Source: Nemertoderma westbladi
Lineage: Eukaryota; Animalia; Xenacoelomorpha
Assembly: GCA_032718475.1 (NCBI GenBank)
Contig: JAUCBJ010003746.1
Location: 1-59,130 of the forward strand
Length of the DNA stretch: 59,130 bases
Direction of reading: 5' to 3'
Below the pieces are notes generated by a model. It saw only the letters and a program-made list of their open reading frames with translations, was not told the origin of the DNA and searched no databases. Below, one piece after another: positions 7,177 through 57,335 of the stretch. The first letter of the stretch is position 1. Each line of letters starts with the position of its first letter. The translations under genes and the position numbers were made by a program.

Positions 7177-10100
7177 TTACGTTGGGGAGTCCCTAGATGT
7201 TTGTTGGATTAGGGAGGTGGTCGTGGGAAGAGTATCTTGCCTTCCATAGTTTCCAGAGAGTTCTCTGTCTCTTTCCAGTAAACATAAACGACCAACTGGG
7301 CGATTGAGCTGCTGCGTCTCGAAGACAATTCCCGGTTTCTTAAAGTTACGTCGCATGACGACGAGTTCTACCGATCGCACCAAACCATCATCCGAGATGT
7401 GAGTCTCGATGATACGACCTGTCTGCCACCGCTTACGTGGAAGATCTGAATCCACAATAAGGACCATGTCTCCAGCGCTGACGTTTTCTTGCTGCGCAAA
7501 CCACTTAGTTCGAAGTTGTAGCGTGGGCAGATAATGTTTTTCGAAATGGTCAGCGAAACGACGGGATAACAACTGCATAAGTTGCCAAGTTTGCCGGCAG
7601 TATTCGTCTCCGTCTGTGATTTCCGATCGTGGGAGCATGGCTACAGGTTTCTTCAGTAGGAAGTGCGTGGGTGTTAGCGCTTCCAGGGAATCGGGACTCG
7701 ATGAGACTGGCATAAGCAGTCTCTCGTTGATATAGGCGGCGATTTCCTCCATTAACATCCGCAAAAGTTTGCGGCACGGCACTATAAAGTGAAATGCGGT
7801 CTTCACGCTCCTGATTAATCTCTCCCAACTTCCTCCCCACCAAGGGGCGTCGGCGGCGTTGAAGGTCAAGCTAGACGCTGTTACCCTTAGCTGATCATCC
7901 ACCTGTCTTTGGTTCCAGTCTTTGACGTAAGCCTTGATTTCATTGTTGGCACCAATGAAGTTTGTTCCCTTATCAGATCTCATCGTGTTACTAGTTCCAA
8001 AGCGAGCGATCTGTCGTCGTAAGCTCAATAGGAAGCTGTTGGTAGATAAATCGTTCACTATATCGAGATGGATAGCTCTACAAGTCATACAGACAAAGAT
8101 GACACACCATCTCTTGACTATAGTCCTAGCACGATATACCTCAATAGGGCCAAATAAATCCACACCGGTATTAGTAAAGGGTGGTTCATAGAAGCTTACT
8201 CGTTCCCTAGGTAATTCTGCCTCTCGCTGTGTTAAAGGCCTACTGAATGCTTTCCTACAGGGTATGCAGTTCCTAAGAACTTGGTTCAGAGCTCTACGGG
8301 GTTTATAAAAATAATAGCGAGTTCGAATTTCGCTAAGAACTCGTTCTCTACCAGCATGATAAAGTTTGGTGTGAACATCTACAATCATCTTGATTTGTAT
8401 TTCAAGATTTCTAATGAGTATGGGAAACTTAGCGTCAAAGGATAATGGAGCATTAGTTAATCTTCCTCCAACACGTATCAACCCATCTATCATAGTGCTA
8501 GAGAAACGATCCCTTAAGCGCATCTGTGGATTTCTCAACAACAGGAAATACTTATCGGAATCCTCATAGCATTGCAGGAGTCTCAGCATCTGCTTATTGG
8601 TTTCTTCATGCTCCTGATAACTGATCTTCTCCTTCAGAAACCTGTCGGATATCTTATATTTGGGAAGATCTTTAACAACATGGACCTGCACAGATGTCAG
8701 TGGAGCGGTATCACTATTGGTCTTCGTCCTGGAGTAGTGATGATGAAAACATCGCTTTAAATATGTAACGGCCTTACAGAGCCGATTCCAGGAACTGTAG
8801 TGATATATCGCTCTCTGCAGGAGAGGTGAGAGTCCTTGCGAGACATCTGGTATTCCAGATTTCCAATCCCTCTCTCTGATTTCCACAACAGACTTATTTG
8901 TGGCTGTGGGTTTCGGATCCAAAGCGTCGTCTCCGGAAGTGTGTAGTACAGACAGATCTACCACGGGTTTAAATAACTTCGATTTACTCGCCCGAGTTTT
9001 AGGTTTGACTTTCTCCGCTCCCTTGGCCTGTCTAATCTCCGCCGTAGTAAGATGAGGAGGCCATTCATCCTCTTCTTTGCTTAGGAAGTCGGGTCCACCT
9101 AACCAGTCTGGAGTATCTATCAGTTCTTGTGGAGTTGCTCCCCTGGAGGCGATGTCTGCTGGATTAATCGTTCCGGGGCAATGTCTCCATTGATCCATCT
9201 TCGTGCGACTAAGTATAATGGCTACTCTGTTGGTAACGAAGACGCTGAACTGACAGACTTCATTGGTTATATACTCCAACACGAGTAAAGCATCGGTCCA
9301 ATAGACAGTTTTCTCCAGTGGATATTCGATCTGTTCTGTTACATTCCGGCCGATGGCTGTAGCGTATAGAGCCGCTTTTAACTCCGCTCGAGGAACTTTC
9401 AACTTGTTGTTTATCAATGCCTTAGAGGTAACCAAGGCGACTTTGATTCCATCCGGAGTTTCCACTCTCAGGTAGGCTACTATACCTATTCCCATATCGC
9501 TGGCGTCTCCAAACACATGGAGTTGATAGGAATATGTAGGGAGAACATGACCAAAATATGAACGGGAAATTATAAAGTTCTCGATGGCTGGTAGAGAATC
9601 TTCCCATTTCATCCACCTCTTTAATAGTTCTCCCTTAAGTGGATCGTCCCATGAGTGGTTTTCAAGCCACATTTGTTGTACTAAACTCCGAGCAATCAAT
9701 ATAACTGGGCTAATAAATCCCAATGGATCGAAATAAGTGCTCAGGATACTTAAACAAATCCGTTTAGTCCGAACTGGATTATCTCGCTGTTTTAGCTGGA
9801 AAAACAGGATATCTCTCTCTGTGTCCCATTTCAAACCAAGTGTCTTGGTTTCTGGAAGATCGTCTTTGATTAGGTCTAGATCTTTCGCTCCTCGATCTTC
9901 TACCGGGATCGATTCCAGAAACTCACGGGAGTTGCTGGTGAATTTAGTTAATCGAAATCCACCTCTTTTTAAGCACTCTACCGTTCCTTTGGCGACATCA
10001 ATGGCTTCTTCAACTGATGGAAGGGACTTTAAATTGTCGTCCATGTATATATCCCGTTTGATGTTGTCGATCACCTCTTTAGAGAAGGCGTCCCGGTTGT

Positions 10101-13100
10101 CATCAGCAGTGGTGCGCACCACTGAACAGGCGTTTGAAGGGCTTGAGATGATCCCAAAAGCCTGGATGGTCATCCAATACTCCACCGGTTTCTGGTTGAG
10201 GTCTCCTTCCGGCCACCACAGAAATCGTAGGCTGTCTCGATCCCTATCCAGCGCCTTGACTTGTAAGAACATGCCTTCTATATCGGAGGCGAAAGCGATT
10301 GAATATTGTCTTAATCTTAAGAGTATTCCTAACAAGGATTGGAGTAAGTTGGGTCCTGGTAACAACTCGGAATTAAGGGATTGGCCCATGTAGAGGGCGG
10401 AGCCGTCAAATACTACCCGTACTTCATGGGGTTTACCGGGTTTGGGAACGTAATGATGTGTTAAATAGTACGTTCTCTCAGTTATGGGTGTTTCTTCCGG
10501 TACTCGCTCCGCATATCCCTTGTTAATAAATTTCTTCAACTGAGTCTGATACATTTCTTTAGCTGAAGCATTTGCCGTAAGGCGTCGATGTAGTTGAGCA
10601 ATACTTTTCTCCGCCAAGGGTCGGTTGTTTAGGAATTTTGGTTCTCGCTTTCGGAATGGTAGACCGATTTCATATCTACCTTGATCTTTAAGAAAACGTG
10701 TAGTTGTCTCCTGGATCTGCTTGGCTCTTTCTTCTTCTACCGATAGGGCCTTATCGTAGAAATTGGGCTCTACAGCCTCTTGAGTAAAGAATCGTATGGC
10801 GTGTTCATCCCGAGTCTTCGCGTTATAGCGCTCGATTACGTCATTCAGTTCGTCGTTATAGTCGACTTGTCCTGATGGACGAATGAGTTGACATAGGTTC
10901 ACTTGGTTTTGCCAAGTCTCGTTTTCCGTAAGGAGATCGATGGTATCGATACCTGGAGATCGATACCTGTTCTTTTGGTAACCTTTCCATGAGAGTTCTA
11001 CGGGAAGGGCCAGTAAAGTACCAACCCACTCTAGTTCTTCCCGCATAGGCTTGTAGTGGTTGCGGTTGAGCAGGCCGTTTCTCCAATGTCTCAAGCGCCT
11101 CATGCGCATTTTGGCCGATGAGTATTTGCACTCCAGGGTAATCTGTGTTGAATCTAGGTATATTAAGCTGCTGGGTGAAATCATCCTCATCCCAGTTATA
11201 CGGTTCTACTTGGCTGGTAGCGAAGTTCTTTATCGCCACCATTTTTACTGACCTTATGCTGTGTTCTCCTAGTTCATCCTGGGGAGTGGACAACGCACCT
11301 ACATAATAATCCGCTATTACTGTAGATTTCAAAACCTGCATAATTCCTGACATGTTTAACTTAGTTCGGAACTTGGGTTGTCCAGCAAAGATGTCTTCGG
11401 CTAGTTCTTTGTCGATGAATGTTCCTGTGCTACCGGAGTCAAGGAGGGCGTTCACTATATAACTCCTTTTAGGTCCGTGGACCCTCAACTGCACTACGGG
11501 AAATTCTCGGATTCCTACATTGGAAGTTGGTGCTTTCCAAGATGGTTGTCGGTCAGAAGTAGTTAGGGGGAGCTCGCTGTCGGTGTCCTTTTCATACGTA
11601 AGTGCTCGATACACTGCGGTATTTATCAGGTAACAGGATTCGTTTTCGTCGGAGAATTCATCCGTATAGAATCCTTCCATCTCAGAACTTTGGTCAGTGT
11701 CGTTCACATCACTGAATTGGACATGTAGTTCGGACTCACTTACCTGACTCGGGCTGTTTCGTTCGAATTCAGTGTGCAACAAGATATGATGTTTTGCGCC
11801 GCACTTTGCACACCTTGCGTCGGAGTAACAGGTTCGCCGTTGGTGTCCTTGTCTGAGGCAATTATATCACAACCGCTTATCCCACATGACTTCCCGTCTA
11901 TCCTTTAATGATTTCTTTAGAAATTCATCACACACATTCAAACGGTGGGGCCCGTCACACAGTGCACATTTCGGTTTGATGTTACTTACCTTATTATGAG
12001 TAACGTTGTGCACACTCATTCTTTCTTCGGGCTTTCTTACCTGAATTCTCTTAGGAGACGTAGGAGGAGTTTTTCTTACCTGTTCTCTCCTGTCATTGGT
12101 TCGAGACTTGAATTTACTTACGTCTTTAGGCGTTTTGTTGACATAATAAGATCTTTCAGTGTCTTTCCCGCTGTCTTCTTCTTGAGAAGCCTGGCTTTCG
12201 CCGTCGTCGGTATAACACACTGGTGTTACCTTTCTCCTAGAAATGGGTTTCTCACTTACCTTGTTTTCCGGTGTCTTCTCTCTGGACTGCTTTAGGAGCT
12301 GTAATTTCACTTCTCCATCTAAGAATGACATGAGATCAGCCATGGTAGGGTCTCGTCGTTGTTGTTCCATCATATATAACACTTTCTTATCCCAGCGTGT
12401 ACCTACTCCACCCTTAGGTAAAGTAGAGGCCATGGCTCCAATAACCATAGAACTCTGATATTCATGAGACTTACCTAGCCAATCTAATTGTCTACAGATC
12501 TCCTGAATCTCATCGGAAAACTCTATAATCCCGCTGCTAATGAACTTTCGGGGGGGCTACCAATTTGGCATACAAATACCTAGCTATGTTATTCCTATTA
12601 CCATACCTGATGTTTAGTGTATCCCAAACTTGTCTTAATCCATCTGGATGTCCAATAAACTTTAACGCCATTAACTTGGAGATCCTTCCAAGCACTCGAT
12701 GAGGAATCTAAGTTTCTCTCCGTTAGATAGCACAGAGTTCTGTATGTTATCTTTGTAATATTCATTAAAAGGTAACCATTTCATCTCATCTCCATTGAAC
12801 TTGACGATCTCTCCCACCTTTACCGCTTGACGGGCTTCGGTTCTAGCCATTTGACGCGTAAAACTTTCTTGGGCCATCGTGTTATTTAATATCGAGTTAT
12901 CGGTATATATATTTCTCGGATTATTATCAAGTCTATATGGAATATCATTGTCAACAGGTTTATAATTACCCTTAATAGGTTTACTATAGGAGTTTCCACA
13001 TCACTAGCAGTATAGATGCGTGTAGGCTCCACACCTTGCGCATGAAATACTTCAGACCTAACAGGTTGACACATTGTTACAGGGGGTGGTGGTATACCCT

Positions 13101-15161
13101 TTTGTGTATTTACTAATTTATCGCGTTCTAACGCGATACTCTGCTGCACTTCTTGCAACTCTAACCTACTTTCCCTTACTGTTCCTTTAAACTGCTGAAC
13201 AGTCTCCTGCATCTGCCCGAGCAGGAGATTCATCCCCCGCCGCCCCTCATCCACCCACTCGACCGCCGAAGCGGGAGCCGCCAACATAGTAGCGGGTAGA
13301 TGAGGGACAACGGGCGACAAATCATTGATATTTCGCTCGGAGTCCAGGACAGGAGCTGTCTCAGGGGCGGTTCTGCTGGGCACAGGTAGTTTAGTACTGT
13401 GCAAAGGGAATTTAAGGTAGGTTCTGGGAGTACAGGTGTCTCTATCACCGAAGGGGTGGCTTCGAGAACAGGCCTAATTATTTCAGGCTCATCTACTATA
13501 GTAGGGAGTCTTTCTATTTTAATTATTTGGTCTGTGGGTTCTGTACTACCTAAGTCTGTGTTAGTTAGTTGCTTTCTAACAGCTGGGGGCAAATCAGGCA
13601 ATTTCTGACGGTGGGACATTCTTCTACGTCTGCTTAGACGAGATCTATTTCCTCCGCCTTCAGGATCGGTGGTATCGCCTTCATCAGATGATGTATATCC
13701 CTGTCTTTTGGGAGTAGATCGACTCATCATCTGCATTTGACTAGCTGTTAACTGTTTATTTATGCAGTATTGATTCTCTTGGATATTTTCCAACTCTAGT
13801 TGGGTGGTCTCTTCAGACGCTCTTCGTTCTGCTTCTGCCACTGCTATTTTTCTTTCCACTTCTGCCGCTGCCTTTGCCGCTTTTCTTTCCGCTTCTACCA
13901 CTTTTTTTTCCGCTTCTACCGCCTTTCTTTCCGCTTCTACCGCCTTTCTTTCCGCTTCTGCCTCTGCTGCTGCCGCTGCTGCTATCTTTCTGTCTTCTAT
14001 ACGTTTTTTCTTTACTTGTTCTTCTTGGACTCTAGCGATGCGGAGGCGTTCATCAAATTTAGCTTGGTTCGCAGCTAACATTTCCACATCTATTGCGTCC
14101 AACACCAGCTTGGTTCCTTCACTATTAGGGCGAAGTCCAGACAACCGTCTCCTCAACTCTTCGTCACCTAGAAATCGTTGATAGTCTGACAGATAGATGT
14201 CAATAGCATCCCTCTAATGCGGTTTCTCAGCTGTCGCTTCACTTTCCACTTGGGAAAATGTAGCATCTGTTGATTCTCCATGGGTTGAGCGCTCAGCCAG
14301 CCGAGCTGTCCACTGGGCCGTTCCTTGAACCTGGAGACTCACCCGCTGAAACCAAGTCTTTACAGCAACTTGCAACGACGTGTCTTGTCTTCTTTTCGAA
14401 GCTTCCTCAAAGGCCGATAGGATTAGTGTGATTCTTAGAATTCTTTCTCGAACTTGATAAAGCAGCTCTCCCTGCTCTTGAGGTCCTTGGGGTTGTCGAA
14501 ACAGTTGTTCCTCTAATCTCTCCAAAGAGCTGAAGAATCCCTGTACGTATCCTGCTGCCGACCTCTTCCATACAGCTGGATCGCTGGTATCTTTTGTCAC
14601 TCCCATCCTGTGTATGTCTTCCCAGGCAGCTTCCGATAAGTCAAACGGGAGTCCGGGTCTGGGGAAGTTCCATTGCGACTCGACAATAGACTTCAGTTCC
14701 TCCCTTGTGTATCCCGCATAACTATCCTTAATCGATCGCTTACTTCTCGCCCAATCAATTTGGTGTTCCTCCACCGCAATCAATACTCTAGTGAGTACGG
14801 CTGCAGGAAGGATGAGAAGGGGATCCGAATAAACCGCATCTGCCATCTTTGCTCCGCGCTCGGGTGTCAGCTCTACAGTATCCGCACTACTGGAGCTGTC
14901 GGGCCGCTGGGAAATAAGTTCTCGGCTCGAGTGTTGCTGCTGTTCTGCTGCTTCTCGGTCCCGCTTGACCTGAGCTCGAGTGTCTATGATAGACCTACGG
15001 TGTTGGACTAGCCTAGGGTCTGATACTACTACTGGAGGGATGATCTTTCTTACAGTAGGAGGTGAGTTGAACTTCGGTCTCACACGTTCCACACTCCTGT
15101 CTGGGTCACAGATGGTTGTATCTAGGAGACTGTCTGACAGGTTTTGCTTTGTGTCAGACAT
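7177..15161 (-). pseudogene. BEL/Pao retrotransposon 2 gag-pol, disabled
   Basis: Gag core VKFNGDEMKWLPF; three knuckles (CALCDGPHRLNVC; L*YNCLRQGHQRRTC with TGA replacing Cys at 11867-11869; CAKCGAKHHILLH); protease ALLDSGSTGTFI; RT IYMDD; RNase H LHVFGDAS...YWTDA; integrase HTKLYHAG..CIPC, GVDLFGP, SDKGTNF, WGGSWERLIRSVK. In-frame TAG at 14214-14216 and frameshifts near ~13400, ~12900, ~12600 and ~11000. Confidence 0.95.
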
Positions 15162-15299
15162 GTTTGTTGGTACAGTTGAATGCCTACTGCTGTATTACAG
15201 TTAAAGCAAGTCTAGTAATTCAGTATCAACTGTTAGCCTAGTAATTAATGAATTACCGATACTGTTACTCAGTGTAACGTGATATATATATAATATATT

Positions 15300-25662: not shown

Positions 25663-27440
25663 ATTATACAATAAATACATCTTGAATAATACTTTGGGAT
25701 GGATAGTGGGGTTTATATAAATCCGTCTAGACATATACGGATAATGAAACCAAATAGATTTAAATAATAAAATACAAATTTAATATTTATTTTGAAAGAT
25801 ATTTAAATTTAGAAGCCTCATGCAACAACACATTCAAAGAAAGTTACATAGGTGAAACGTACTAAGTAATCGTAACAGGTACTATGACAAATACAGTAGG
25901 AACGCTGTACGCTGTCTTAGGGAGAATAAGTCGGCTCCCCTGTTCGTCAAAAAAAGGCCCTCGATGCGTTCCTCTTAAGCGGAATCCTCTACAATTGTGA
26001 ATCTTGCGGCTGCAAAAATTTCTCCGCTATATAACAAAAATATCGAAAAGCTCTGAAAACCATGCTTTGAGTTAGCTTCTACTCCAAATGAGTTCGCTTG
26101 CACTGAACTTGGAGGGTGGACGCCCCTCGATTTCGGCAATTATAAAGGCTCGCACAGTCACTCTGACCAAACGACTCGGTTCAGAGAACCACGATGATGA
26201 AGAAAGCCCCAATATTACTGAGCGACGAGAGCAGTATTGAAAACTCTCTCCTACGGTCACATATACGGGACTGCAGCAATAACTCAAACGCCAAGGACGT
26301 TGAGAACGAATCACTGAACACCTGGAGGAAAGCTGATGATCTATTATGTAATTAGACCCTTTTACTATGTTTGTTTTTATTTAATTAATGGCGATTGTTT
26401 TCCTCTATATGTATTTAGTCCCTTTTACTATGTTTGTTTTTACTTAATAATATTTATTATATTTTACTAAATTATTTTATGAACCAAATATTTATGAACC
26501 ATAAAAGAGAATCAACCTACAATTAATTAATTATGATTATTTATATTTTGATCTATATCTTATCCCGTTTTAACATATGAACTGCATACCGTTTATTGAA
26601 AGTGCTTATAATTAATTATTTATTTTTACGGTTTAATTTCAGATTTAAATTGAATGCTTAATTGTAGTACCGGTACAGAATGTTGTAGGCTTATCATGTA
26701 TGGTTTATTGTTTATAGTATGTATATTCCTTTTTACATGTTTTGTACAGGAATTAAAACGAATCAATCAATCAATCAATCATGAGGGAAAATCAAAATAT
26801 ATCACCTATCTCGTGGTAAATCCTTCGATATCGAGACCATCCATTCACAATCACATGTACTCCTCTTCAGATATTACACTGTACCGATGTCACCTGTACT
26901 GATGTACCTACCTAGGCCGACATACTGCCGTTATTTATGGAATAATTTTGAATTTGATGTACCAATATGGAATAAAATTAAAATTTCAATTTCGAAAACT
27001 AACTAATACTAGAATATAACTATGTTTTATTTCAAAATAAATGTTTTATTTATTTTATTCTCTCAATAATTATCTTACTAATTAGTTATCCAAAAAACTT
27101 TATTTAAACTGTAATTAGATTATATTTCAGTGGTCTTTTTGTCTTTATTCTACATAGTTAATGACAATGTGATTATCGATCCTCCTGTTTTACACATTTT
27201 GTTATTGATAGTAATAATGTGGCAAGCTGTATTTTTTGAGGTGTTTGTTATTATATATTTATTATAGGAAGGGATCTAGGGGGTCTTAACCTCGAATGAT
27301 AAGTTTATTTTACCGAAAATAACTTATCTTTTATAGGCGCAATTGTAGGACTAATCCCATCACATGCGTACTTTTTAACCGGGTAATGTTAAAATTTAGG
27401 AATCGCGTAATTTTTCTTGAAATTAATATATCATATCTCT

Positions 27441-27492
27441 CCAAACCACGTACGCGTTTCGACCTTACTGGGTCTCATCAGCGTCGTGTCGG
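27441..27492 (-). ncRNA. Minimal type I hammerhead ribozyme
   Basis: Minus strand: ccgacacgacg-CTGATGA-GACC-cagtaa-GGTC-GAAA-CGC-GTA/cgtggtttgg. Intact core, 4-bp stem II, palindromic ACGCGT stem III, imperfect stem I. Confidence 0.8.
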
Positions 27493-27550
27493 ATTTGAAC
27501 CTGGGACCTCGAGGTAGAAGCCGAGACAACAACCACTAGGCCACAGGTTC
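27491..27550 (-). promoter_or_regulatory. tRNA-derived Pol III internal promoter (A and B boxes)
   Basis: GAACCTG-TGGCCTAGTGG (A box starting at position 8; 27533-27543) and GGTTCAAATCC (B box; 27491-27501). Confidence 0.8.
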
Positions 27551-27819
27551 TTGAGATATGGAGTATTAATTTCAAATCCAGCAGCCATTATATTAGCCCC
27601 TGAATTTTATTATTGATAGTAACAATGTGTTGGCAAGCTGTATTTTTCGAGTTGTTTGTTATTATATATTTCTTATAGGAAGGGATCTAGGGGGTCTTAA
27701 CCTCGAATGATAAGTTTTACCGAAAATAATCGTTAATATCATGGGGGATAAAGAGTTATGGCGGCGCAAATATGTCGATAGCCGGTATAGCATTCTTGAC
27801 ACAGCTATACGTAAGTGCA

Positions 27820-29068
27820 TATGGTCATCTTTGACTGTATGTGATTGTATGTGAGTGTATGTGATCGTTTGTGTTTGTATGTACGTGTATATGGCAATCT
27901 TTAACTGTATGGTATGTGATTGAAGGTGAGTGTATGTGATCGTTTATGTTTGTATGTAAGTGTATATGGCAATCTTTGACTGTATGTGATTGTATGTGAG
28001 TGTATGTGAACGTTTGTGTTTGTATGTAAGTGAATATGGCCATCTTTAACTGTATGTGATTGTATGTGATCGATTGTGTTTGTATGTAAGTGTATATGGC
28101 CATCTTTAACTGTATGTGATTGTATGTGAGTGTATGTGATCGTTTGTATTTGTATGTAAGTGTATATGGCCATCTTTAACTGTATGTGATCGTTTGTGGT
28201 TGTATGTAAGTGTATATGGCCATCTTTGACTGTATGTGATTGTAGGTGAGTGTATGTGATCGTTTGTGTTTGTATGTAAGTGTATATGGCCATCTTTAAC
28301 TGTATGTGATCGTTTGTGGTTGTATGTGATCGTTTGTGGTTGTATGTGATCGTTTGTGGTTGTATGTAAGTGTATATGGCCATCTTTGACTGTATGTGAT
28401 TGTAGGTGAGTGTATGTGATCGTTTGTGGTTGTATGTAATTGTATATGGTCATCTTTGACTGTATGTGATTGTAGGTGAGTGTATGTGATCGTTTGTGTT
28501 TGTATGTAGGTGTATATGGCCATCTTAACTGTATGTGATCGTTTGTGGTTGTATGTAAGTGAATATGGCCATCTTTAACTGTATGTGATTGTATGTGAGT
28601 GTATGTGATCGTTTGTGTTTGTATGTAAGTGCAGTGTATATGGCCATCTTTGACTGTATGTGATTGTAGGTGAGTGTATGTGATCGTTTGTGGTTGTATG
28701 TAAGTGTATATGGCCATCTTTGACTGATGTGATTGTAGGTGAGTGTATGTGATCGTTTGTGTTTGTATGTAAGTGTATATGGCCATCTTTGACTGTATGT
28801 GATTGTAGGTGAGTGCATGTGATCGTTTGTGGTTGTATGTAAGTGTATATGGCCATCTTTGACTGATGTGATTGTAGGTGAGTGTATGTGATCGTTTGTG
28901 GTTGTATGTAGGTGTATATGGCCATCTTTAACTGTATGTGATCGTTTGTTGTTGTATGTAAGTGTATATGGCCATCTTTGACTGTATGTGATTGTAGGTG
29001 TGTGTATGTGATCGTTTGTGTTTGTATGTAAGTGTATATGGCCATCTTTAACTGTTTGTGGTTGTATG
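27820..29068. repeat. Minisatellite of 10-bp subunits in 50-70-bp higher-order units
   Basis: ggccatctttgactgtatgtgattgtaggtgagtgtatgtgatcgtttgtgtttgtatgtaagtgtatat repeated with subunit gain and loss. Confidence 0.95.
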
Positions 29069-33625: not shown

Positions 33626-34324
33626 TTATTTGCGAGCGCCGTGGTGTCGCCACCAGTATATAACTTCCTCCTCGCTGTAGCTGGTGAACTGAAAGGCCTC
33701 TGAAGCCTCGCCCGCACGGATGTATTCCCAGAGGGGCTCCAACTCGGATGGAATCTCGTACGATTTAAAGTATTTAGCGGCTACGCGGATATGATACAAC
33801 TTGGGGAGTAGTGCGCAATCTGGGAGTGTCATCTCGTCGCCGTCTAGATAAGGACCCGCGTGTTCCTTACGTCCCTCCAATAGGAACACCGATATGTGGG
33901 ATAATTCCTCCGTCAAAGTTTTACTGAACAAATCCTCCTTTTGCGGATCCATATTTTTGATCAATCGAGTGAACTTTTGGAAGACGTTATCTCCGATCGT
34001 GTTGGCTTTTGAGTTGGCCGCTTTTAGAGGGAATTCCATGAACTTATTCTCGAGGTAGTCCTCTGCTTCTCTGATGTCGGTAATAAATACGGATGTCCCG
34101 TGTTGCAGGGCCGGTAGCGGGCGACCCTGCAGGGTGTTCTTCACCTCAGGAGTCAGGCGTTTCGTGTCCACGACCGTTACGTCGAAGGAAAGCTGCTTCA
34201 AACGCATAACCAAGAATATTCTGTGGCAGAACACGCAGCCACCCAATTCTCTGGTGTGCTCCGGGCTCGATTTAACAAAAAGTGTTAACTTGTCGTCACT
34301 GTTAGAAATATCGTTTTCAGCCAT
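33626..34324 (-). CDS. CLIC: Chloride intracellular channel protein (GST-omega fold), 232 aa, intron-free CDS
   Basis: LTLFVKS...LGGCVFCHRIFLVMRLKQLSFDVTVVD and YLDGDEMTLPDCALLPKLYHIRVAAKYFKSYEIP match the CLIC N- and C-domain signatures; full length. Confidence 0.95.
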   Translation of the reverse strand: MAENDISNSDDKLTLFVKSSPEHTRELGGCVFCHRIFLVMRLKQLSFDVTVVDTKRLTPEVKNTLQGRPLPALQHGTSVFITDIREAEDYLENKFMEFPLKAANSKANTIGDNVFQKFTRLIKNMDPQKEDLFSKTLTEELSHISVFLLEGRKEHAGPYLDGDEMTLPDCALLPKLYHIRVAAKYFKSYEIPSELEPLWEYIRAGEASEAFQFTSYSEEEVIYWWRHHGARK

Positions 34325-43470: not shown

Positions 43471-44811
43471 TTAATCAACAGTTTCTCTAGATGAATATAG
43501 TGACGCCTCCAGGACGACATGTCCATCGCCGTAAGCCGCCATTAAATCGTTCACAATCTGTTCACTATTCTTTTCACTGGAATATTTCTGGGAAACGTGA
43601 AGGTTGGCGACGGTTGCAACAATAGCCATAATAATGAACATAACGAAATCTGAAATATTAAGAACCTTTTGCCAAATGTTTCGGCGCTTGTACCATCTTA
43701 TAGAGATAATGTTTTGAGGGGGGCACTCATATTTACAACCATTTGATTCATGTATCACATTTTCAATTTCAACAGGAGATGAACTGTCGCCTTTTGATTC
43801 CTCTTTGCCAACATAAGAACGTGCTTTTGATAGAATCACACACATAATGACACAGATTAGAGTAAACAAAACATTAAAGTAATACAATTGGCAAAGAATA
43901 GGTAGGGTCTTTCCTGAAGGCGGGAGGTAATCCTGCACTACAACCATATTGAGAAGTTGGGCAAAGAAAACTGCCGAAACGAGACTGATGCGATCACCTT
44001 GTTCATGTGGTATGAGATATATAAAGGGGATGATGCAACTTATAATGATGGAAGGAAATATTATTGTCTTGAAGTGGAATTGCGGGGCTCTGTGTAAAGT
44101 TATAGCATAAACAAGGGTTGTGAACAGATCTGGTCCTTTTCCAGGCTTTGTCAGGCGTTCAGTTTGCTCAGAAGTTATTATACTGTGATCCCAAAGCCAT
44201 TCATTTGATGATAAGTCAACAGACATCATTATTGGAAGCATAAGAGTTTCACTCCAAGTCAGATTGACAAAACTATCATTGTAGGTCCATGAAGAAATGT
44301 TGAACATGAGAAGTTGAACATCATATGGGAAATAAGTTGCCCCCAAGTTTTGAATTGAATGCATTTTCCATCTCTGATACAATCTCATCTCACCAGTAGA
44401 CTCGACAGCAACATAGTTCACCTCATCACCTATCCCAACCTCTAACATACCCACCAAAACAATATTAGGAGTCCATACCTTGTTCGGATCAACAATAATC
44501 TCAGTAATACCAAGGTACTCATCTGGGTCCCATTGAAGCATTTCATCCTTCCAGAAAATAGTGACACAGGCAGAAAATGTCAGTGCGGAATGGATGATAT
44601 TAATGTCAATAAGGTGGGTCAGCTGAAATAAAACTCCGACATTTATAACATTACTCTGGTTGTTAATTGGTCGTGTATGAGGAAAATAATCATCAAACAG
44701 TTTATTATTTAGTTCAGTACTTGCTTTCATTATAGTTCTATTAACTTGATGGCTGTTGCTATGCACTGTCACCACTAAACCCATTGAAATTATAATTGAT
44801 ATTGCTCTCAT
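43471..44811 (-). CDS. Pentameric ligand-gated ion channel subunit, nAChR/5-HT3-like non-alpha, 446 aa, intronless, lacking the Cys-loop cysteines
   Basis: Signal peptide; LFDDYFPHTRP, WKDEMLQWDP, VWTPNIVL, YFPYDVQ, SSWTY; four TM segments; GDRISL before M2; YLPPSG M2-M3 loop. Confidence 0.93.
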   Translation of the reverse strand: MRAISIIISMGLVVTVHSNSHQVNRTIMKASTELNNKLFDDYFPHTRPINNQSNVINVGVLFQLTHLIDINIIHSALTFSACVTIFWKDEMLQWDPDEYLGITEIIVDPNKVWTPNIVLVGMLEVGIGDEVNYVAVESTGEMRLYQRWKMHSIQNLGATYFPYDVQLLMFNISSWTYNDSFVNLTWSETLMLPIMMSVDLSSNEWLWDHSIITSEQTERLTKPGKGPDLFTTLVYAITLHRAPQFHFKTIIFPSIIISCIIPFIYLIPHEQGDRISLVSAVFFAQLLNMVVVQDYLPPSGKTLPILCQLYYFNVLFTLICVIMCVILSKARSYVGKEESKGDSSSPVEIENVIHESNGCKYECPPQNIISIRWYKRRNIWQKVLNISDFVMFIIMAIVATVANLHVSQKYSSEKNSEQIVNDLMAAYGDGHVVLEASLYSSRETVD

Positions 44812-49640: not shown

Positions 49641-49803
49641 CGTTTTTTTTCCCATGAAATACGTAAATTGTGCAATTCTTTAATAAAAGATAGAGCGATA
49701 TAGACTTATAAAATAAATTGAACTGTATTATTAACTTTTAGTCATAGCGTACTCTATTAAGTAGTACGCTATGCTATAGAGTACGCTATGCTGATAATAT
49801 TTT

Positions 49804-49849
49804 AGCGCTACTGATGAGGCCTGATAGGCTGAAACGTACGTATAGCGCT
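49804..49849 (+). ncRNA. Minimal type I hammerhead ribozyme
   Basis: AGCGCTA-CTGATGA-GGCC-tgata-GGCT-GAAA-CGTAC-GTA/TAGCGCT. Perfect 7-bp stem I, stem II with one G-U pair, palindromic ACGTACGT stem III. Confidence 0.85.
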
Positions 49850-50804
49850 GGTTCAACCCCCGGTGACGCGCTTTCTCATTTTTTCCATTTCTGAACAAAA
49901 CCATAATATTACATCTATAGTATTTTATTCCAAAATTGTAACATTACTCAACGCCGTTAGTATTACCAGCGAGTTGTTATTTAGCACTTTACAACTTTTG
50001 AGGACATTACAGCAATGTATTGGCCTGTACATTTAGTATTGTATTTGGTGTTATTGTTTACGTGGTAACCATGACGGCGTTAAGTAATGTCCACTAAGGG
50101 GACATTACTTAACGCCGTCATTGGTTACGACGTAAACAATAGAAGGAAATTTGCCTGACAGCCAGATAGGCCTACTGCATTACCTACCGGTAGGCGGGGT
50201 ATAGCTATTAATAACCAGTAGCTAAATTATTAACATGGCTCCAAACGCCACCATAAATATAAGCTAACTTATTTATAACATAATGTATGCCATTTTTACA
50301 TTTATTTATACAGCAACTAATATAATTTGTGCAGTTTCTATCACTTATAATGTATATGTACAATCGTTTCGTAGTGTTAGAATTTTCTGAATAAAACTAC
50401 ATACATACTTGTTGCAAAGTACTTTACAGTGTTCTGATCCTCGGTGGCTTTATTTTCACTCACTCACTAACGTTCGTTCGTGTAACAACGCCACTCGGAT
50501 CATCACACTGTAAAGTGCTACTTTACAAACAAGTATGTAAATAGTTATTACAATATTGCTTGCGTAGTTACTGCAAATCAAATTACTGTACTCTTCAACT
50601 CCTGATGCTGCCTTACTCAATCTTAAATAATTAATTTAGTGTTCTCGAATATTTATTACGTAACTACGTTTCTAAGTCGATGCTCTTTCAATACATGTAA
50701 TAAAAATTAAGAAATTCCACCAAATTTATTTTTTTTCACCGGGAAAAAAAGTAAAATTTATGCAATGGTTACTATTATCTAGGGAAAAGAAGACAGATTT
50801 TGGG

Positions 50805-52539: not shown

Positions 52540-52607
52540 GGAATGGGGGATTGAACACGTTACCTAGAGATTCCAAGTCCCAAGCTCTGCCACTGAGCCA
52601 TTGGGGC
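52540..52607 (-). pseudogene. tRNA-derived SINE head or tRNA pseudogene
   Basis: GCCCCAA-TGGCTCAGTGG (A box) ... GTGTTCAATCCC (B box); acceptor stem not intact. Confidence 0.6.
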
Positions 52608-54620: not shown

Positions 54621-57335
54621 TCAACTAGTCACGGTATTTGTTTGTTAATCCTTAATGCGTTTGTACATCGGTTATATTTTTTGGTTGTTATCTAACCATA
54701 ACTCATCGAGTGTCTCCTCATTCTGAGGTTCCATATTATTACTACATACTTCCTATTTTTTGTTTATTAACGCTTGGTTCATTTTGCTGTCCTATATTCA
54801 ATTTTCCCCCTCGCAGGGACCCCACTTGCAGTTTACTCTATGCCTACCACTTGGAGGGGTCCCATCCTACATGGTTACGGTGCCGTGGGGCGTGGGCCCT
54901 CCTGGAACTAGCTTCTTTGCTGTAGCAGTGAACAGATCTGCCCGTAGTATACTACTGCATGTTGTTTTAATACTGTGCGACCTGGACGTGATGCTGGTTC
55001 TGTTGGGTAAAACGAACTTAGATCCTGCAAGGCATGACTTCGATGAACTTAGATCCTAACTAGGTGAACTAAGATCCTAACTAGGTGAACTTAGATCCTA
55101 ACTAGGTGAACTTAGATCCTAACTAGGTGAACTTAGAACCTTACTAGGTGAACTTAGATCATAACCCGGTGAACTTAGATCCTAACTAGGTCAACTTAGA
55201 TCCTAAGTAAGTGAACTTAGATCCTAAGTTGGTAAACTTAGATCCTAACTCGGTGAACTTAGATCCTAACTAGGTCAACTTAGATCCTAAGTAGGTGAAC
55301 TTAGATCCTAAGTTGGTGAACTTAGATCCCAAATAGGTGAACTTAGATCCTAACTAGGTCAACATAGAACCTAACTAGGTGAACTTAGATCCTAAGTAGG
55401 TGAACTTAGAACCTAACTAGGTGAACTTAGATCCTAACTAGGTCAACTTAGATCCTAACTAGGTGAACTTAGAACCTAACTAGGTGAACTTAGATCCTAA
55501 CTAGGTGAACTTAGATCCTAACTAGGTGAACTTAGATCCTAACTCAGTGAACTTAGATCCTAACTAGGTCAACTTAGATTCTAACTAGGTGAACTTAGAT
55601 CCTAACTAGGTCAACTAGTCACGGTATTTGTTTGCTAATCCTTAATGCCTTTGTACATCGGTTATATTTTTTGGTTGTTATCTAACCATAACTCATCGAG
55701 TGTCTCCTCATTCTGAGGTTCCATATTATTACTACAGTACTTCCTATTTTTTGTTTATTAACGCTTGGTTCATTTTGCTGTCCTATATTCAATTTTCCCC
55801 CTCGCAGGGACCCCACTTGCAGTTTACTCTATGCCTACCACTTGGAGGGATCCCATCCTACATGGTTACGGTGCCGTGGGGCGTGGGCCCTCCTGGAACT
55901 AGCTTCTTTGCTGTAGCAGTGGCAGATCTGCCCGTAGTATACTACTGCATGTTGTTTTAATACTGTGCGACCTGGACGTGATGCTGGTTCTGTTGGGTAA
56001 AACGAACTTAGATCCTGCAAGGCATGACTTCGATGAACTTAGATCCTAACTAGGTGAACTAAGATCCTAACTAGGTGAACTTAGATCCTAACTAGGTGAA
56101 CTTAGATCCTAACTAGGTGAACTTAGAACCTTACTAGGTGAACTTAGATCATAACCCGGTGAACTTAGATCCTAACTAGGTCAACTTAGATCCTAAGTAA
56201 GTGAACTTAGATCCTAAGTTGGTAAACTTAGATCCTAACTCGGTGAACTTAGATCCTAACTAGGTCAACTTAGATCCTAAGTAGGTGAACTTAGATCCTA
56301 AGTTGGTGAACTTAGATCCCAAATAGGTGAACTTAGATCCTAACTAGGTCAACATAGAACCTAACTAGGTGAACTTAGATCCTAAGTAGGTGAACTTAGA
56401 ACCTAACTAGGTGAACTTAGATCCTAACTAGGTCAACTTAGATCCTAACTAGGTGAACTTAGAACCTAACTAGGTGAACTTAGATCCTAACTAGGTGAAC
56501 TTAGATCCTAACTAGGTGAACTTAGATCCTAACTCAGTGAACTTAGATCCTAACTAGGTCAACTTAGATTCTAACTAGGTGAACTTAGATCCTAACTAGG
56601 TCAACTAGTCACGGTATTTGTTTGCTAATCCTTAATGCCTTTGTACATCGGTTATATTTTTTGGTTGTTATCTAACCATAACTCATCGAGTGTCTCCTCA
56701 TTCTGAGGTTCCATATTATTACTACAGTACTTCCTATTTTTTGTTTATTAACGCTTGGTTCATTTTGCTGTCCTATATTCAATTTTCCCCCTCGCAGGGA
56801 CCCCACTTGCAGTTTACTCTATGCCTACCACTTGGAGGGGTCCCATCCTACATGGTTACGGTGCCGTGGGGCGTGGGCCCTCCTGGCACTAGCTTCTTTG
56901 CTGTAGCAGTGGCAGATCTGCCCGTAGTATACTACTGCATGTTGTTTTAATACTGTGCGACCTGCACGTGATGCTGGTTCTGTTGGGTAAAACGAACTTA
57001 GATCCTGCAAGGCATGACTTCGATGAACTTAGATCCTAACTAGGTGAACTAAGATCCTAACTAGGTGAACTTTAGATCCTAACTAGGTGAACTTAGATCC
57101 TAACTAGGTGAACTTAGAACCTAACTAGGTGAACTTAGATCCTAACTAGGTGAACTTAGAACCTAACTAGGTAAACTTAGATCCTAACTCGGTGAACTTA
57201 GATCCTAACTAGGTCAACTTAGGTACTAAGTAGGTGAACTTAGATCCTAAGAGGTGAACTTAGATCCTAACTAAGGTGAACTTAGATCCTAACTAGGTGA
57301 ACTTAGATCCTTTAACTAGGTGAACTTAAATCCCA
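54621..57335. repeat. 990-bp composite tandem repeat (2.7 copies); each unit is ~400 bp unique sequence plus an array of 21-bp gaacttagatcctaactaggt
   Basis: tcaactagtcacggtatttg at 54621, 55611 and 56601; arrays at ~55015-55617, 56005-56607 and 56995-57335. Confidence 0.97.

What the first reader, a model, noticed from the sequence alone, without database searches (positions are those of the whole stretch)
27202..27729. Pol III promoter fused to a hammerhead ribozyme inside a 408-bp repeat unit: candidate retrozyme or ribozyme-SINE
Seen (minus strand): a tRNA-like start at 27550, A box and B box, with the end of the B box running straight into stem I of a hammerhead. The predicted cut is after GUA at 27451, ~100 nt from the start, and the first TTTT is at 27391-27394. 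The cassette sits between two ~120-bp direct repeats. Established: minimal type I hammerheads with palindromic stem III occur in Penelope pLTRs and animal non-LTR retrozymes and cleave best as dimers; Schistosoma Sm-alpha combines Pol III boxes with a hammerhead. Inference: a possibly undescribed self-transcribing, self-cleaving mobile RNA family, with the repeats being either a 1.3-mer of the unit or a long insertion duplication.
Basis: partly seen in the sequence, partly recalled or inferred. Interest (0 to 1): 0.8.

Follow-up and report, generated by a model that had tools for sequence, protein, structure and literature searches.

The report
tRNA-headed hammerhead retrozyme, aged copy
This is one slightly decayed, one-and-a-third-unit copy of a very abundant 411-base non-coding repeat in an animal genome that joins a tRNA-type promoter motif directly to a hammerhead ribozyme motif, a design already known from blood flukes; the family likely makes its own RNA, is predicted to cut it, and was likely pasted back by a Penelope-type transposon enzyme.

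Summary
In detail: A box, B box and a type I hammerhead are fused on the minus strand (0 of 200 shuffles gave this). In public DNA runs, depth is roughly four orders of magnitude above the flank over the whole stretch 27212-27729, repeats included, and one contig closes a 411-base unit head to tail. The repeats are therefore a 1.3-mer of the unit, not an insertion duplication. This copy is aged. A diverged relative keeps the ribozyme and B box unchanged. Best reading: a non-autonomous retrozyme built like Schistosoma Sm-alpha, probably copied from multimeric or circular RNA by a Penelope-type reverse transcriptase. Cleavage, Pol III transcription, circular RNA and the partner enzyme are all untested, and the host was not identified. 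This scan has already noted what is probably this family (411-412-base units) at four other places in this genome. Verdict: new member of a known kind.

The parts
27196..27729 (-). Whole insertion: about 1.3 units of the 411-bp family, arranged A1-U-A2; no target-site duplication found
   Evidence: Depth 1e5-9e5 across it in X1-X3, against 1-16 at 27164-27187 and 22-1100 at 27730-27805 (X2). The TSD search found at most 3 nt.
27604..27729 (-). A1: 5'-truncated second pass through the unit's 3' segment; starts inside the hairpin that holds the T4
   Evidence: It shares with A2 a letter carried by about 1% or less of family depth (27667/27256).
27553..27575 (-). 5' arm of a 23-bp inverted repeat; lies upstream of the presumed Pol III start
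   Evidence: 87% complementary; fold of 27410-27580 has z -6.4, 0 of 200 shuffles as good; pairs listed.
27491..27550 (-). tRNA-derived head. D stem partly kept; T stem and acceptor stem lost; parent tRNA not identifiable
   Evidence: no ARAGORN or Rfam tRNA call.
27533..27543 (-). A box of a type 2 Pol III promoter (predicted)
   Evidence: pattern match. In relative X7 the changes fall at 27535, 27540 and 27542, which are degenerate places of the consensus (consensus from general knowledge).
27491..27501 (-). B box (predicted); its 3' end doubles as the outer 5' strand of hammerhead stem I
   Evidence: The majority letter at 27496 (about 100% in X1-X3, X5, X7) gives the canonical box.
27441..27492 (-). 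Type I hammerhead motif: stem I 6 bp + bulge + 4 bp, core 27481-27475, stem II 4 bp, GAAA 27460-27457, palindromic stem III 27457-27452, predicted cut between 27451 and 27450
   Evidence: This copy has a G-G mismatch at 27485/27447 that is a C-G pair in over 99.7% of depth.
27417..27439 (-). 3' arm of the 23-bp inverted repeat
27391..27394 (-). TTTT peculiar to this copy; not a family feature
   Evidence: rows 27390 and 27391.
27316..27319 (-). First T4 kept by the family, 235 nt from the presumed start, inside a weak hairpin; would have to be read through to make a template for new copies
   Evidence: no variant row there; seen in the joint letters.
27196..27321 (-). A2: AC-rich 3' segment of the unit, holding two recurrent family 3' ends at about 27201 and about 27262
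   Evidence: Loose ends with unrelated flanks at the equivalent places 27608-27612 and 27673, and at matching places in the 27220 and 27280 rows.

Best explanation
This locus is an aged, 5'-truncated, one-and-a-third-unit copy of an abundant 411-bp non-coding repeat that fuses a tRNA-derived A/B-box head to a type I hammerhead motif, and the family is likely a non-autonomous retroelement (a retrozyme of Sm-alpha design). Shown: the unit, its abundance, the head-to-tail junction, the fusion, and the intact motifs in the majority letters. Inferred steps: (1) Pol III starts at about 27550 and sometimes reads through the single T4 into the next unit. (2) Two hammerheads of a multimer pair through the palindromic stem III and cut, releasing a 411-nt cut-to-cut monomer with the promoter at its 3' end. 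(3) The monomer would be ligated into a circle, in which the 23-bp inverted repeat closes a long helix around head and ribozyme. That helix cannot form in a single primary transcript, because one arm lies upstream of the start. (4) A Penelope-type reverse transcriptase/endonuclease likely nicks AT-rich DNA, starts at one of two internal sites 189 or 250 nt downstream of the cut, and copies the circle or an uncut multimer more than once round, giving the A-U-A layout. A lone copy like this one, with one hammerhead and a broken stem I pair, is predicted to cleave poorly.
For: Abundance over the whole unit: median summed depth 3.9e5-6.0e5 in X1-X3, against 2-140 for the longer single contigs in table 8. 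One 441-nt contig in X4 closes the unit head to tail (411 + 30 overlap; joint 27717 to 27322). Majority letters improve the motifs at 3 of the 6 positions looked up: stem I pair 27485 and D-stem pair 27528, and B box 27496 (read). 27577 stays unpaired, and 27430 and 27516 fall outside the helices listed. No row at 5% share or more falls in the catalytic core in X1-X3. The relative in X7 has 0 of 76 differences from the majority over ribozyme and B box, against about 13 of 66 in the adjoining head (Fisher p 2e-5, inflated by how the run was found). Recurrent 3' ends with unrelated flanks: 17+8 contigs at 27608-27609 and 8 at 27673 in X2 (agreement 0.43-0.51), and 2+1 and 2 in X5. A1 and A2 share a letter held by about 1% or less of depth, so they came from one template or subfamily. 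Circular fold of the unit: z -4.1 against 60 shuffles. Penelope RT starts at two internal AC-rich sites and nicks AT-rich DNA (PMC11167929, parts 1-2 of 4 read). Partial tandems and an optional 30-40 bp tail are Penelope hallmarks (PMC8557442 passages). Sm-alpha has the same promoter-then-hammerhead order (PMC6765202 passages) and is related to tRNA-Gln (PMC2770079 passages).
Against: No activity was measured. The Rfam score is below threshold (24.3 against 52 bits). No Penelope ORF appears among the window's ORFs (5 of 45 scanned against Pfam), and no genome was held to look for one. The two recurrent ends are about 64 nt apart, longer than the 30-40 bp tail described for Penelope elements. 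They rest on 8-30 contigs per row in truncated tables (649 and 198 rows not shown), and the 27673 end sits beside a private mismatch of this copy, which can clip alignments. Depth dips about tenfold at the U/A1 junction in X2 (2.5e4-4.2e4 at 27590-27604), so many copies may stop short of it; five clustered differences there confound the dip, and X5 shows no clear dip. A T4 lies between the promoter and the recurrent 3' ends, so templates need read-through or another polymerase. In the one Penelope element tested, hammerhead cleavage was not needed for insertion. One diverged contig in X5 (depth 401) has a broken core, so dead copies exist.
Confidence: 0.62

Rival explanations
1. Same element and ribozyme, but copied by a LINE (for example RTE-type) reverse transcriptase instead of a Penelope-type one.
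For: RTE-like LINE remnants are common in the window, and a 60-bp 3' fragment of one abuts the 5' end of this copy (27739-27797; the clade label is my reading of the translations).
Against: The LINE fragment is on the opposite strand, back to back with the element. The unit's 3' segment has no BLAST match to the window's LINE copies. This copy has no poly(A) or repeat tail and no TSD.
Confidence: 0.14
2. The unit is the terminal repeat (pLTR), or a direct deletion derivative, of an autonomous protein-coding Penelope element whose promoter is tRNA-derived.
For: The layout is a partial tandem. Animal retrozymes cluster with pLTRs (bioRxiv 10.64898/2026.07.22.740005, part 1 of 5 and passages). 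Unreviewed notes on other genomes report tRNA-headed pLTRs.
Against: The frame from the core ATG stops after 15 codons. The unit closes on itself (X4). The best-supported loose 3' ends show unrelated flanks, not one shared coding region. The hammerhead has the canonical retrozyme helix lengths.
Confidence: 0.1
3. A transcribed satellite DNA spread mainly by DNA-level amplification; the tRNA head and hammerhead are relics of a founding element and no longer matter.
For: High copy number, a homogeneous majority sequence and head-to-tail junctions fit a satellite. Homogenisation alone can keep motifs intact within one species.
Against: This copy is dispersed among unrelated repeats; 3' ends recur with unrelated flanks; the diverged relative conserves the ribozyme and B box while the spacer changes.
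Confidence: 0.1
4. A MITE bounded by the 23-bp inverted repeats (27417-27575) that captured a tRNA piece and a hammerhead.
For: A 23-bp inverted repeat brackets the cassette, and depth falls just outside its 5' arm in X2.
Against: High depth runs about 200 bp beyond the 3' arm without a step, and the majority path continues through both arms.
Confidence: 0.04

Closest known systems
Sm-alpha / Sj-alpha SINE-like hammerhead retroposons of Schistosoma (seen through PMC6765202, PMC2770079 and PMC8490949 passages; Ferbeyre 1998 not held, Laha 2000 not read)
   Same: tRNA-related Pol III promoter followed by a type I hammerhead; unit of a few hundred bases (335 bp for W36.2); thousands of copies or more; repeated arrangement; promoter ends up at the 3' end of a cut monomer.
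   Different: Sequence relationship not tested; host not identified. Stem III here is 1-2 bp with a palindrome, so dimer-dependent cleavage is predicted. The long inverted repeat around the cassette and the two internal 3' ends are not mentioned in the passages read.
Metazoan non-LTR retrozymes (PMC7229834, parts 2-3 of 6 and passages; bioRxiv 10.64898/2026.07.22.740005, part 1 of 5 and passages)
   Same: Non-coding, low-GC 150-450 bp unit with a type I hammerhead, head-to-tail junctions, a self-paired predicted circle, and a proposed Penelope partner. Stem III is like axolotl HHR_Amex1.
   Different: Neither paper's main text mentions a Pol III promoter or tRNA head (term counts; supplements not read). 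This locus has one hammerhead, so it is a non-'active' derivative by the 2026 criterion.
Penelope/Poseidon PLEs, e.g. PAc of Anolis (PMC11167929; PMC4209133 and PMC8557442 passages)
   Same: Partial tandem with 5' truncation, hammerhead in the repeat, two internal AC-rich 3' ends downstream of the cut, AT-rich flanks.
   Different: No ORF; canonical instead of minimal hammerhead; ends about 64 nt apart instead of 30-40 nt.
Classical tRNA-derived SINEs (general knowledge)
   Same: tRNA-derived head with A and B boxes, no coding capacity, high copy number.
   Different: Copies include sequence upstream of the head and join head to tail; no A-rich or LINE-derived tail and no TSD here.

Membership tests
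Canonical metazoan type I hammerhead | Core CUGANGA, GAAA, UH | tested here: met
   no core variant at 5% share in X1-X3.
Canonical metazoan type I hammerhead | Helix I 6 bp, helix II 4 bp, helix III 1-2 bp with a palindromic loop | tested here: met
   (5 of 6 inner helix I pairs in this copy, 6 of 6 with the majority letter); definition from PMC4209133.
Canonical metazoan type I hammerhead | Rfam gathering score | tested here: not met
   24.3 against 52 bits for HH9; no family at gathering score. Only this aged copy was scored.
Canonical metazoan type I hammerhead | Loop 1 - loop 2 tertiary contacts | not tested
   No descriptor was applied.
Canonical metazoan type I hammerhead | Self-cleavage | not testable with these tools
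   Needs a bench assay.
Non-LTR retrozyme | Non-coding 150-450 bp unit with a type I hammerhead, joined head to tail | tested here: met
   411-bp closure in X4; junction in the window and in X2 and X5; no ORF of 120 aa or more over 27196-27729.
Non-LTR retrozyme | Two or more consecutive units with complete hammerheads | tested here: inconclusive
   Not met at this locus (one hammerhead). Contigs are too short to show arrays; arrays are reported only in unreviewed notes.
Non-LTR retrozyme | Expressed as unit-length linear and circular RNA | not testable with these tools
   No run on record as RNA was available; contigs cannot separate a circle from tandem DNA.
Sm-alpha-type hammerhead SINE | tRNA-derived A/B boxes directly followed by a hammerhead, linked across copies | tested here: met
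   the X4 contig and diverged contigs spanning 27387-27533; X7.
Sm-alpha-type hammerhead SINE | Sequence homology to Sm-alpha, schistosome host | not tested
   No Sm-alpha sequence was fetched; the host was not placed (one search gave no hit).
Sm-alpha-type hammerhead SINE | Pol III transcription | not testable with these tools
   Only box conservation was seen.
Classical tRNA SINE | Copies start at the tRNA head | tested here: not met
   High depth continues upstream of 27550.
Classical tRNA SINE | A-rich or LINE-like tail and TSD | tested here: not met
   This locus only.
pLTR of an autonomous Penelope element | Adjacent RT plus GIY-YIG ORF | tested here: not met
   Not at this locus; the rest of the genome could not be searched.
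Penelope-mobilised element | Fixed internal 3' ends, partial tandem, AT-rich targets | tested here: inconclusive
   Two recurrent ends in truncated loose-end tables; partial tandem shown; targets not counted.
MITE | Element bounded by its inverted repeats | tested here: not met
   Depth covers the whole 411-bp unit.

The most novel reading that the evidence does not exclude
This family is a self-promoting circular-RNA retroelement. A tRNA B box is welded into hammerhead stem I; Pol III read-through gives multimers that cut in pairs and close into rod-like circles; a Penelope reverse transcriptase then rolls round the circle from two internal start sites. That would make it a demonstrable Penelope-mobilised SINE, probably outside schistosomes, and would supply the promoter that the retrozyme papers read here do not describe.
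Probability: 0.3. Interest if true: 0.65.

Novelty: new member of a known kind. Interest (0 to 1): 0.4.

Why it matters
How animal retrozymes are transcribed, and which enzyme copies them, is inferred and not shown in the papers read. An abundant, homogeneous family with an intact internal Pol III promoter, a dimer-type hammerhead and mappable 3' ends would let both be tested directly: promoter, cleavage, circle, and RT start site. It would also show whether the Sm-alpha design arose more than once. This particular copy is aged and is not the one to assay.

Tried and rejected
No whole genome was held, so copy number, array length, TSDs and a Penelope partner could not be surveyed.

Run search: no RNA holder listed. 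X4 is only guessed to be RNA, is labelled organism B, and gave one contig; it is used only for closure of the unit, not for expression. X1 and X2 are one sample.

Generic B-box-then-hammerhead pattern in metagenome contigs: 3 loci, none related. Two are chance matches in a tRNA array, and one is an unrelated hammerhead-like motif with no tRNA call; none has a BLAST hit to the window. The viral and prokaryote collections were not scanned.

Host placement: the CLIC-like protein had no hit at E 1e-30 among 122 candidates. In PDB it is closer to vertebrate CLICs (1e-33) than to the fly or worm proteins, which does not place the host.

Look-up of earlier findings by sequence found nothing. Co-folding two copies of the hammerhead gave -42.0 against 2 x -20.0 kcal/mol and not the double-hammerhead fold, so it is uninformative; the palindrome alone self-pairs at -9.5. 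The parent tRNA could not be named: the anticodon-position triplet differs between this copy, the majority and X7.

Rejected: insertion duplication, MITE, and an LTR element (no TG...CA ends, by eye). PMC5785218 and PMC108972 were not held. No supplements were read; retrozyme sequence lists there could include relatives of this family. Summed contig depth is not a copy number: the ratios of 1.3e4-2.4e4 use single-copy depths that I estimated by eye and are upper bounds.

Full report
OBSERVATION. On the minus strand the window shows an A box (27543-27533), a B box (27501-27491) and, directly after it, a type I hammerhead motif with an intact core, a 4-bp stem II, a palindromic stem III and a cut site after GUA at 27451. 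The strict hammerhead pattern occurs twice in the window and in 0 of 200 shuffles; the fused arrangement occurs once and in 0 of 200, whereas an A+B pair alone appears in 62 of 200. Rfam recognises a hammerhead below threshold (HH9, 24.3 bits against 52, E 0.00044). No tRNA is called, because the T stem and acceptor stem are gone. The direct repeats are 91% identical.

CONTEXT. The window looks like an animal genome. It holds a CLIC-like gene, a ligand-gated ion channel subunit, a Pao-type LTR element and LINE remnants. The host was not placed and no genome was held. The copy sits between a 60-bp LINE 3' fragment on the opposite strand, followed by a minisatellite, and a moderately repeated sequence at 27092-27163. 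No target-site duplication was found.

FAMILY. Of 8 runs listed, 6 were laid. In three DNA runs of organism A (two studies), summed contig depth is 1.3e5-8e5 over 27212-27595 and 1-16 at 27164-27187. In X2 it stays at 1e5-9e5 up to 27729 and falls to about 1e3 or less beyond. This is not a copy number, but it implies thousands of copies or more. The repeat has the same depth as the rest, so it is part of the unit. A 441-nt contig in X4 runs once round the unit and back into itself (411 + 30); that fits tandem DNA or a circle equally. A1 and A2 share a letter held by about 1% or less of the family's depth (27256/27667), so both came from one template or subfamily. The locus is a 5'-truncated 1.3-mer.

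THIS COPY IS AGED; THE FAMILY IS INTACT. At 27485 over 99.7% of depth has the letter that turns a G-G mismatch into the sixth pair of stem I. At 27496 about 100% has the canonical B-box letter. At 27528 about 94% has a letter that adds a D-stem pair. The first T4 of the family is at 27319-27316, 235 nt from the presumed start. With helices of 6, 4 and 1-2 bp and a palindromic loop 3, the motif fits the canonical metazoan form, which is reported to cleave poorly as a monomer and well as a dimer (PMC4209133 passages; axolotl data in PMC7229834 part 3). Dead copies exist: one X5 contig has core changes.

A RELATIVE. Three contigs in a sediment metagenome (X7) match the majority at all 76 positions over 27432-27507. 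They differ at about 13 of 66 positions in the adjoining head; the A-box changes fall at degenerate places, and the anticodon-arm pairing is lost (p 2e-5). The run was found because it shares exact words, so the p value is inflated; the informative point is that the conserved block falls on the ribozyme and B box. Read by eye from single loose ends, the outer part of the inverted repeat appears changed on both arms and still complementary. This is a weak hint only. Conserved boxes with a lost cloverleaf suggest a DNA-level promoter role (inference).

ENDS. Loose ends with unrelated flanks pile up at 27608-27612 (25 contigs in X2, 3 in X5) and 27673 (8 and 2), equivalent to 27201 and 27262. The 27220 and 27280 rows point to the same two places in X1-X3. 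These ends lie 250 and 189 nt downstream of the cut, in an AC-rich stretch with no poly(A) tail. The tables are truncated, and alignment clipping may contribute to the second end. Depth dips tenfold at the U/A1 junction in X2 but not clearly in X5; clustered differences confound this. A purified Penelope protein starts reverse transcription at two internal AC-rich sites and nicks AT-rich DNA (PMC11167929 parts 1-2 of 4), and partial tandems are typical of these elements (PMC8557442 passages). This is why I favour a Penelope-type partner, although none was found here.

MECHANISM. Shown: anatomy, abundance, linkage, junction, intact majority motifs. Inferred: Pol III start near 27550 with read-through; dimer-type cleavage of multimers; ligation to a circle (RtcB-type in other retrozymes, PMC7229834 passages); internal priming and more than one pass round the template. 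One arm of the inverted repeat lies upstream of the presumed start, so the long helix can form only in read-through or circular RNA, which fits this model. The unit folds as a circle with z -4.1 (60 shuffles). Confidence 0.62. Rivals: LINE-mobilised 0.14, pLTR of an autonomous Penelope element 0.10, passive satellite 0.10, MITE 0.04.

COMPARISON AND NOVELTY. By anatomy it works like Sm-alpha/Sj-alpha: promoter then hammerhead, repeated, apparently Pol III (PMC6765202 passages), tRNA-Gln-related and over 10,000 copies (PMC2770079 passages; PMC8490949 passages). It also fits non-LTR retrozymes. Homology to Sm-alpha was not tested. It fails the classical SINE and MITE tests. Eight full-text searches (mostly listings seen) turned up no tRNA-headed hammerhead family outside schistosomes. 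The nearest other hit was a paper on tRNA-bearing LTR elements that mentions hammerheads only in a reference (PMC10886601 passages). The library lacks most subscription papers, and no supplement was read. Unreviewed notes from this scan describe 411-412-bp units of this design at four other places in this genome, some as arrays or polymorphic insertions, and tRNA-headed Penelope repeats in other genomes. I treat them as leads only; my reading was set down before I saw them.

VERDICT. A real feature; a new member of a known kind; interest 0.4. Most novel reading not excluded: a Pol III-driven, circle-forming, Penelope-copied SINE (probability 0.3, interest 0.65).

Noticed in passing
window 49802-49861 (+): A second, unrelated type I hammerhead motif (7-8 bp stem I, palindromic stem III) followed at once by a B-box-like 11-mer, with a 17-bp hairpin just upstream. 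No A box was matched upstream. It may belong to a second family in this genome that earlier notes describe as a hammerhead inside a tRNA promoter; not checked.
   Followed up: partly
window 52560-52600 (-): Another degenerate tRNA-like stretch with A- and B-box-like motifs and no hammerhead; possibly an old SINE head.
   Followed up: no
window 27739-29068 (+): A 60-bp 3' fragment of a LINE (three other copies in the window) followed by a 1.26-kb higher-order minisatellite of 10-bp subunits, possibly an expanded LINE tail.
   Followed up: partly
window 7177-15194 (-): A Pao-type LTR retrotransposon with a 1342-aa open pol frame (Peptidase_A17, DUF5641, integrase zinc domain).
   Followed up: partly
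window 33626-34324 (-) and 43471-44811 (-): Single uninterrupted ORFs for a CLIC-like protein and a ligand-gated ion channel subunit; the CLIC-like protein has no close database relative at E 1e-30.
   Followed up: partly
window 54621-57333 (+): A tandem duplication with a period of about 990 bp that contains 21-bp arrays.
   Followed up: no
window 26924-27163: Moderately repeated sequence (depth up to 5000) flanking the element's 3' end; family not identified.
   Followed up: no
L002 2001-2047 (-): An unrelated hammerhead-like motif next to a perfect 88-bp inverted repeat in a metagenome contig.
   Followed up: no
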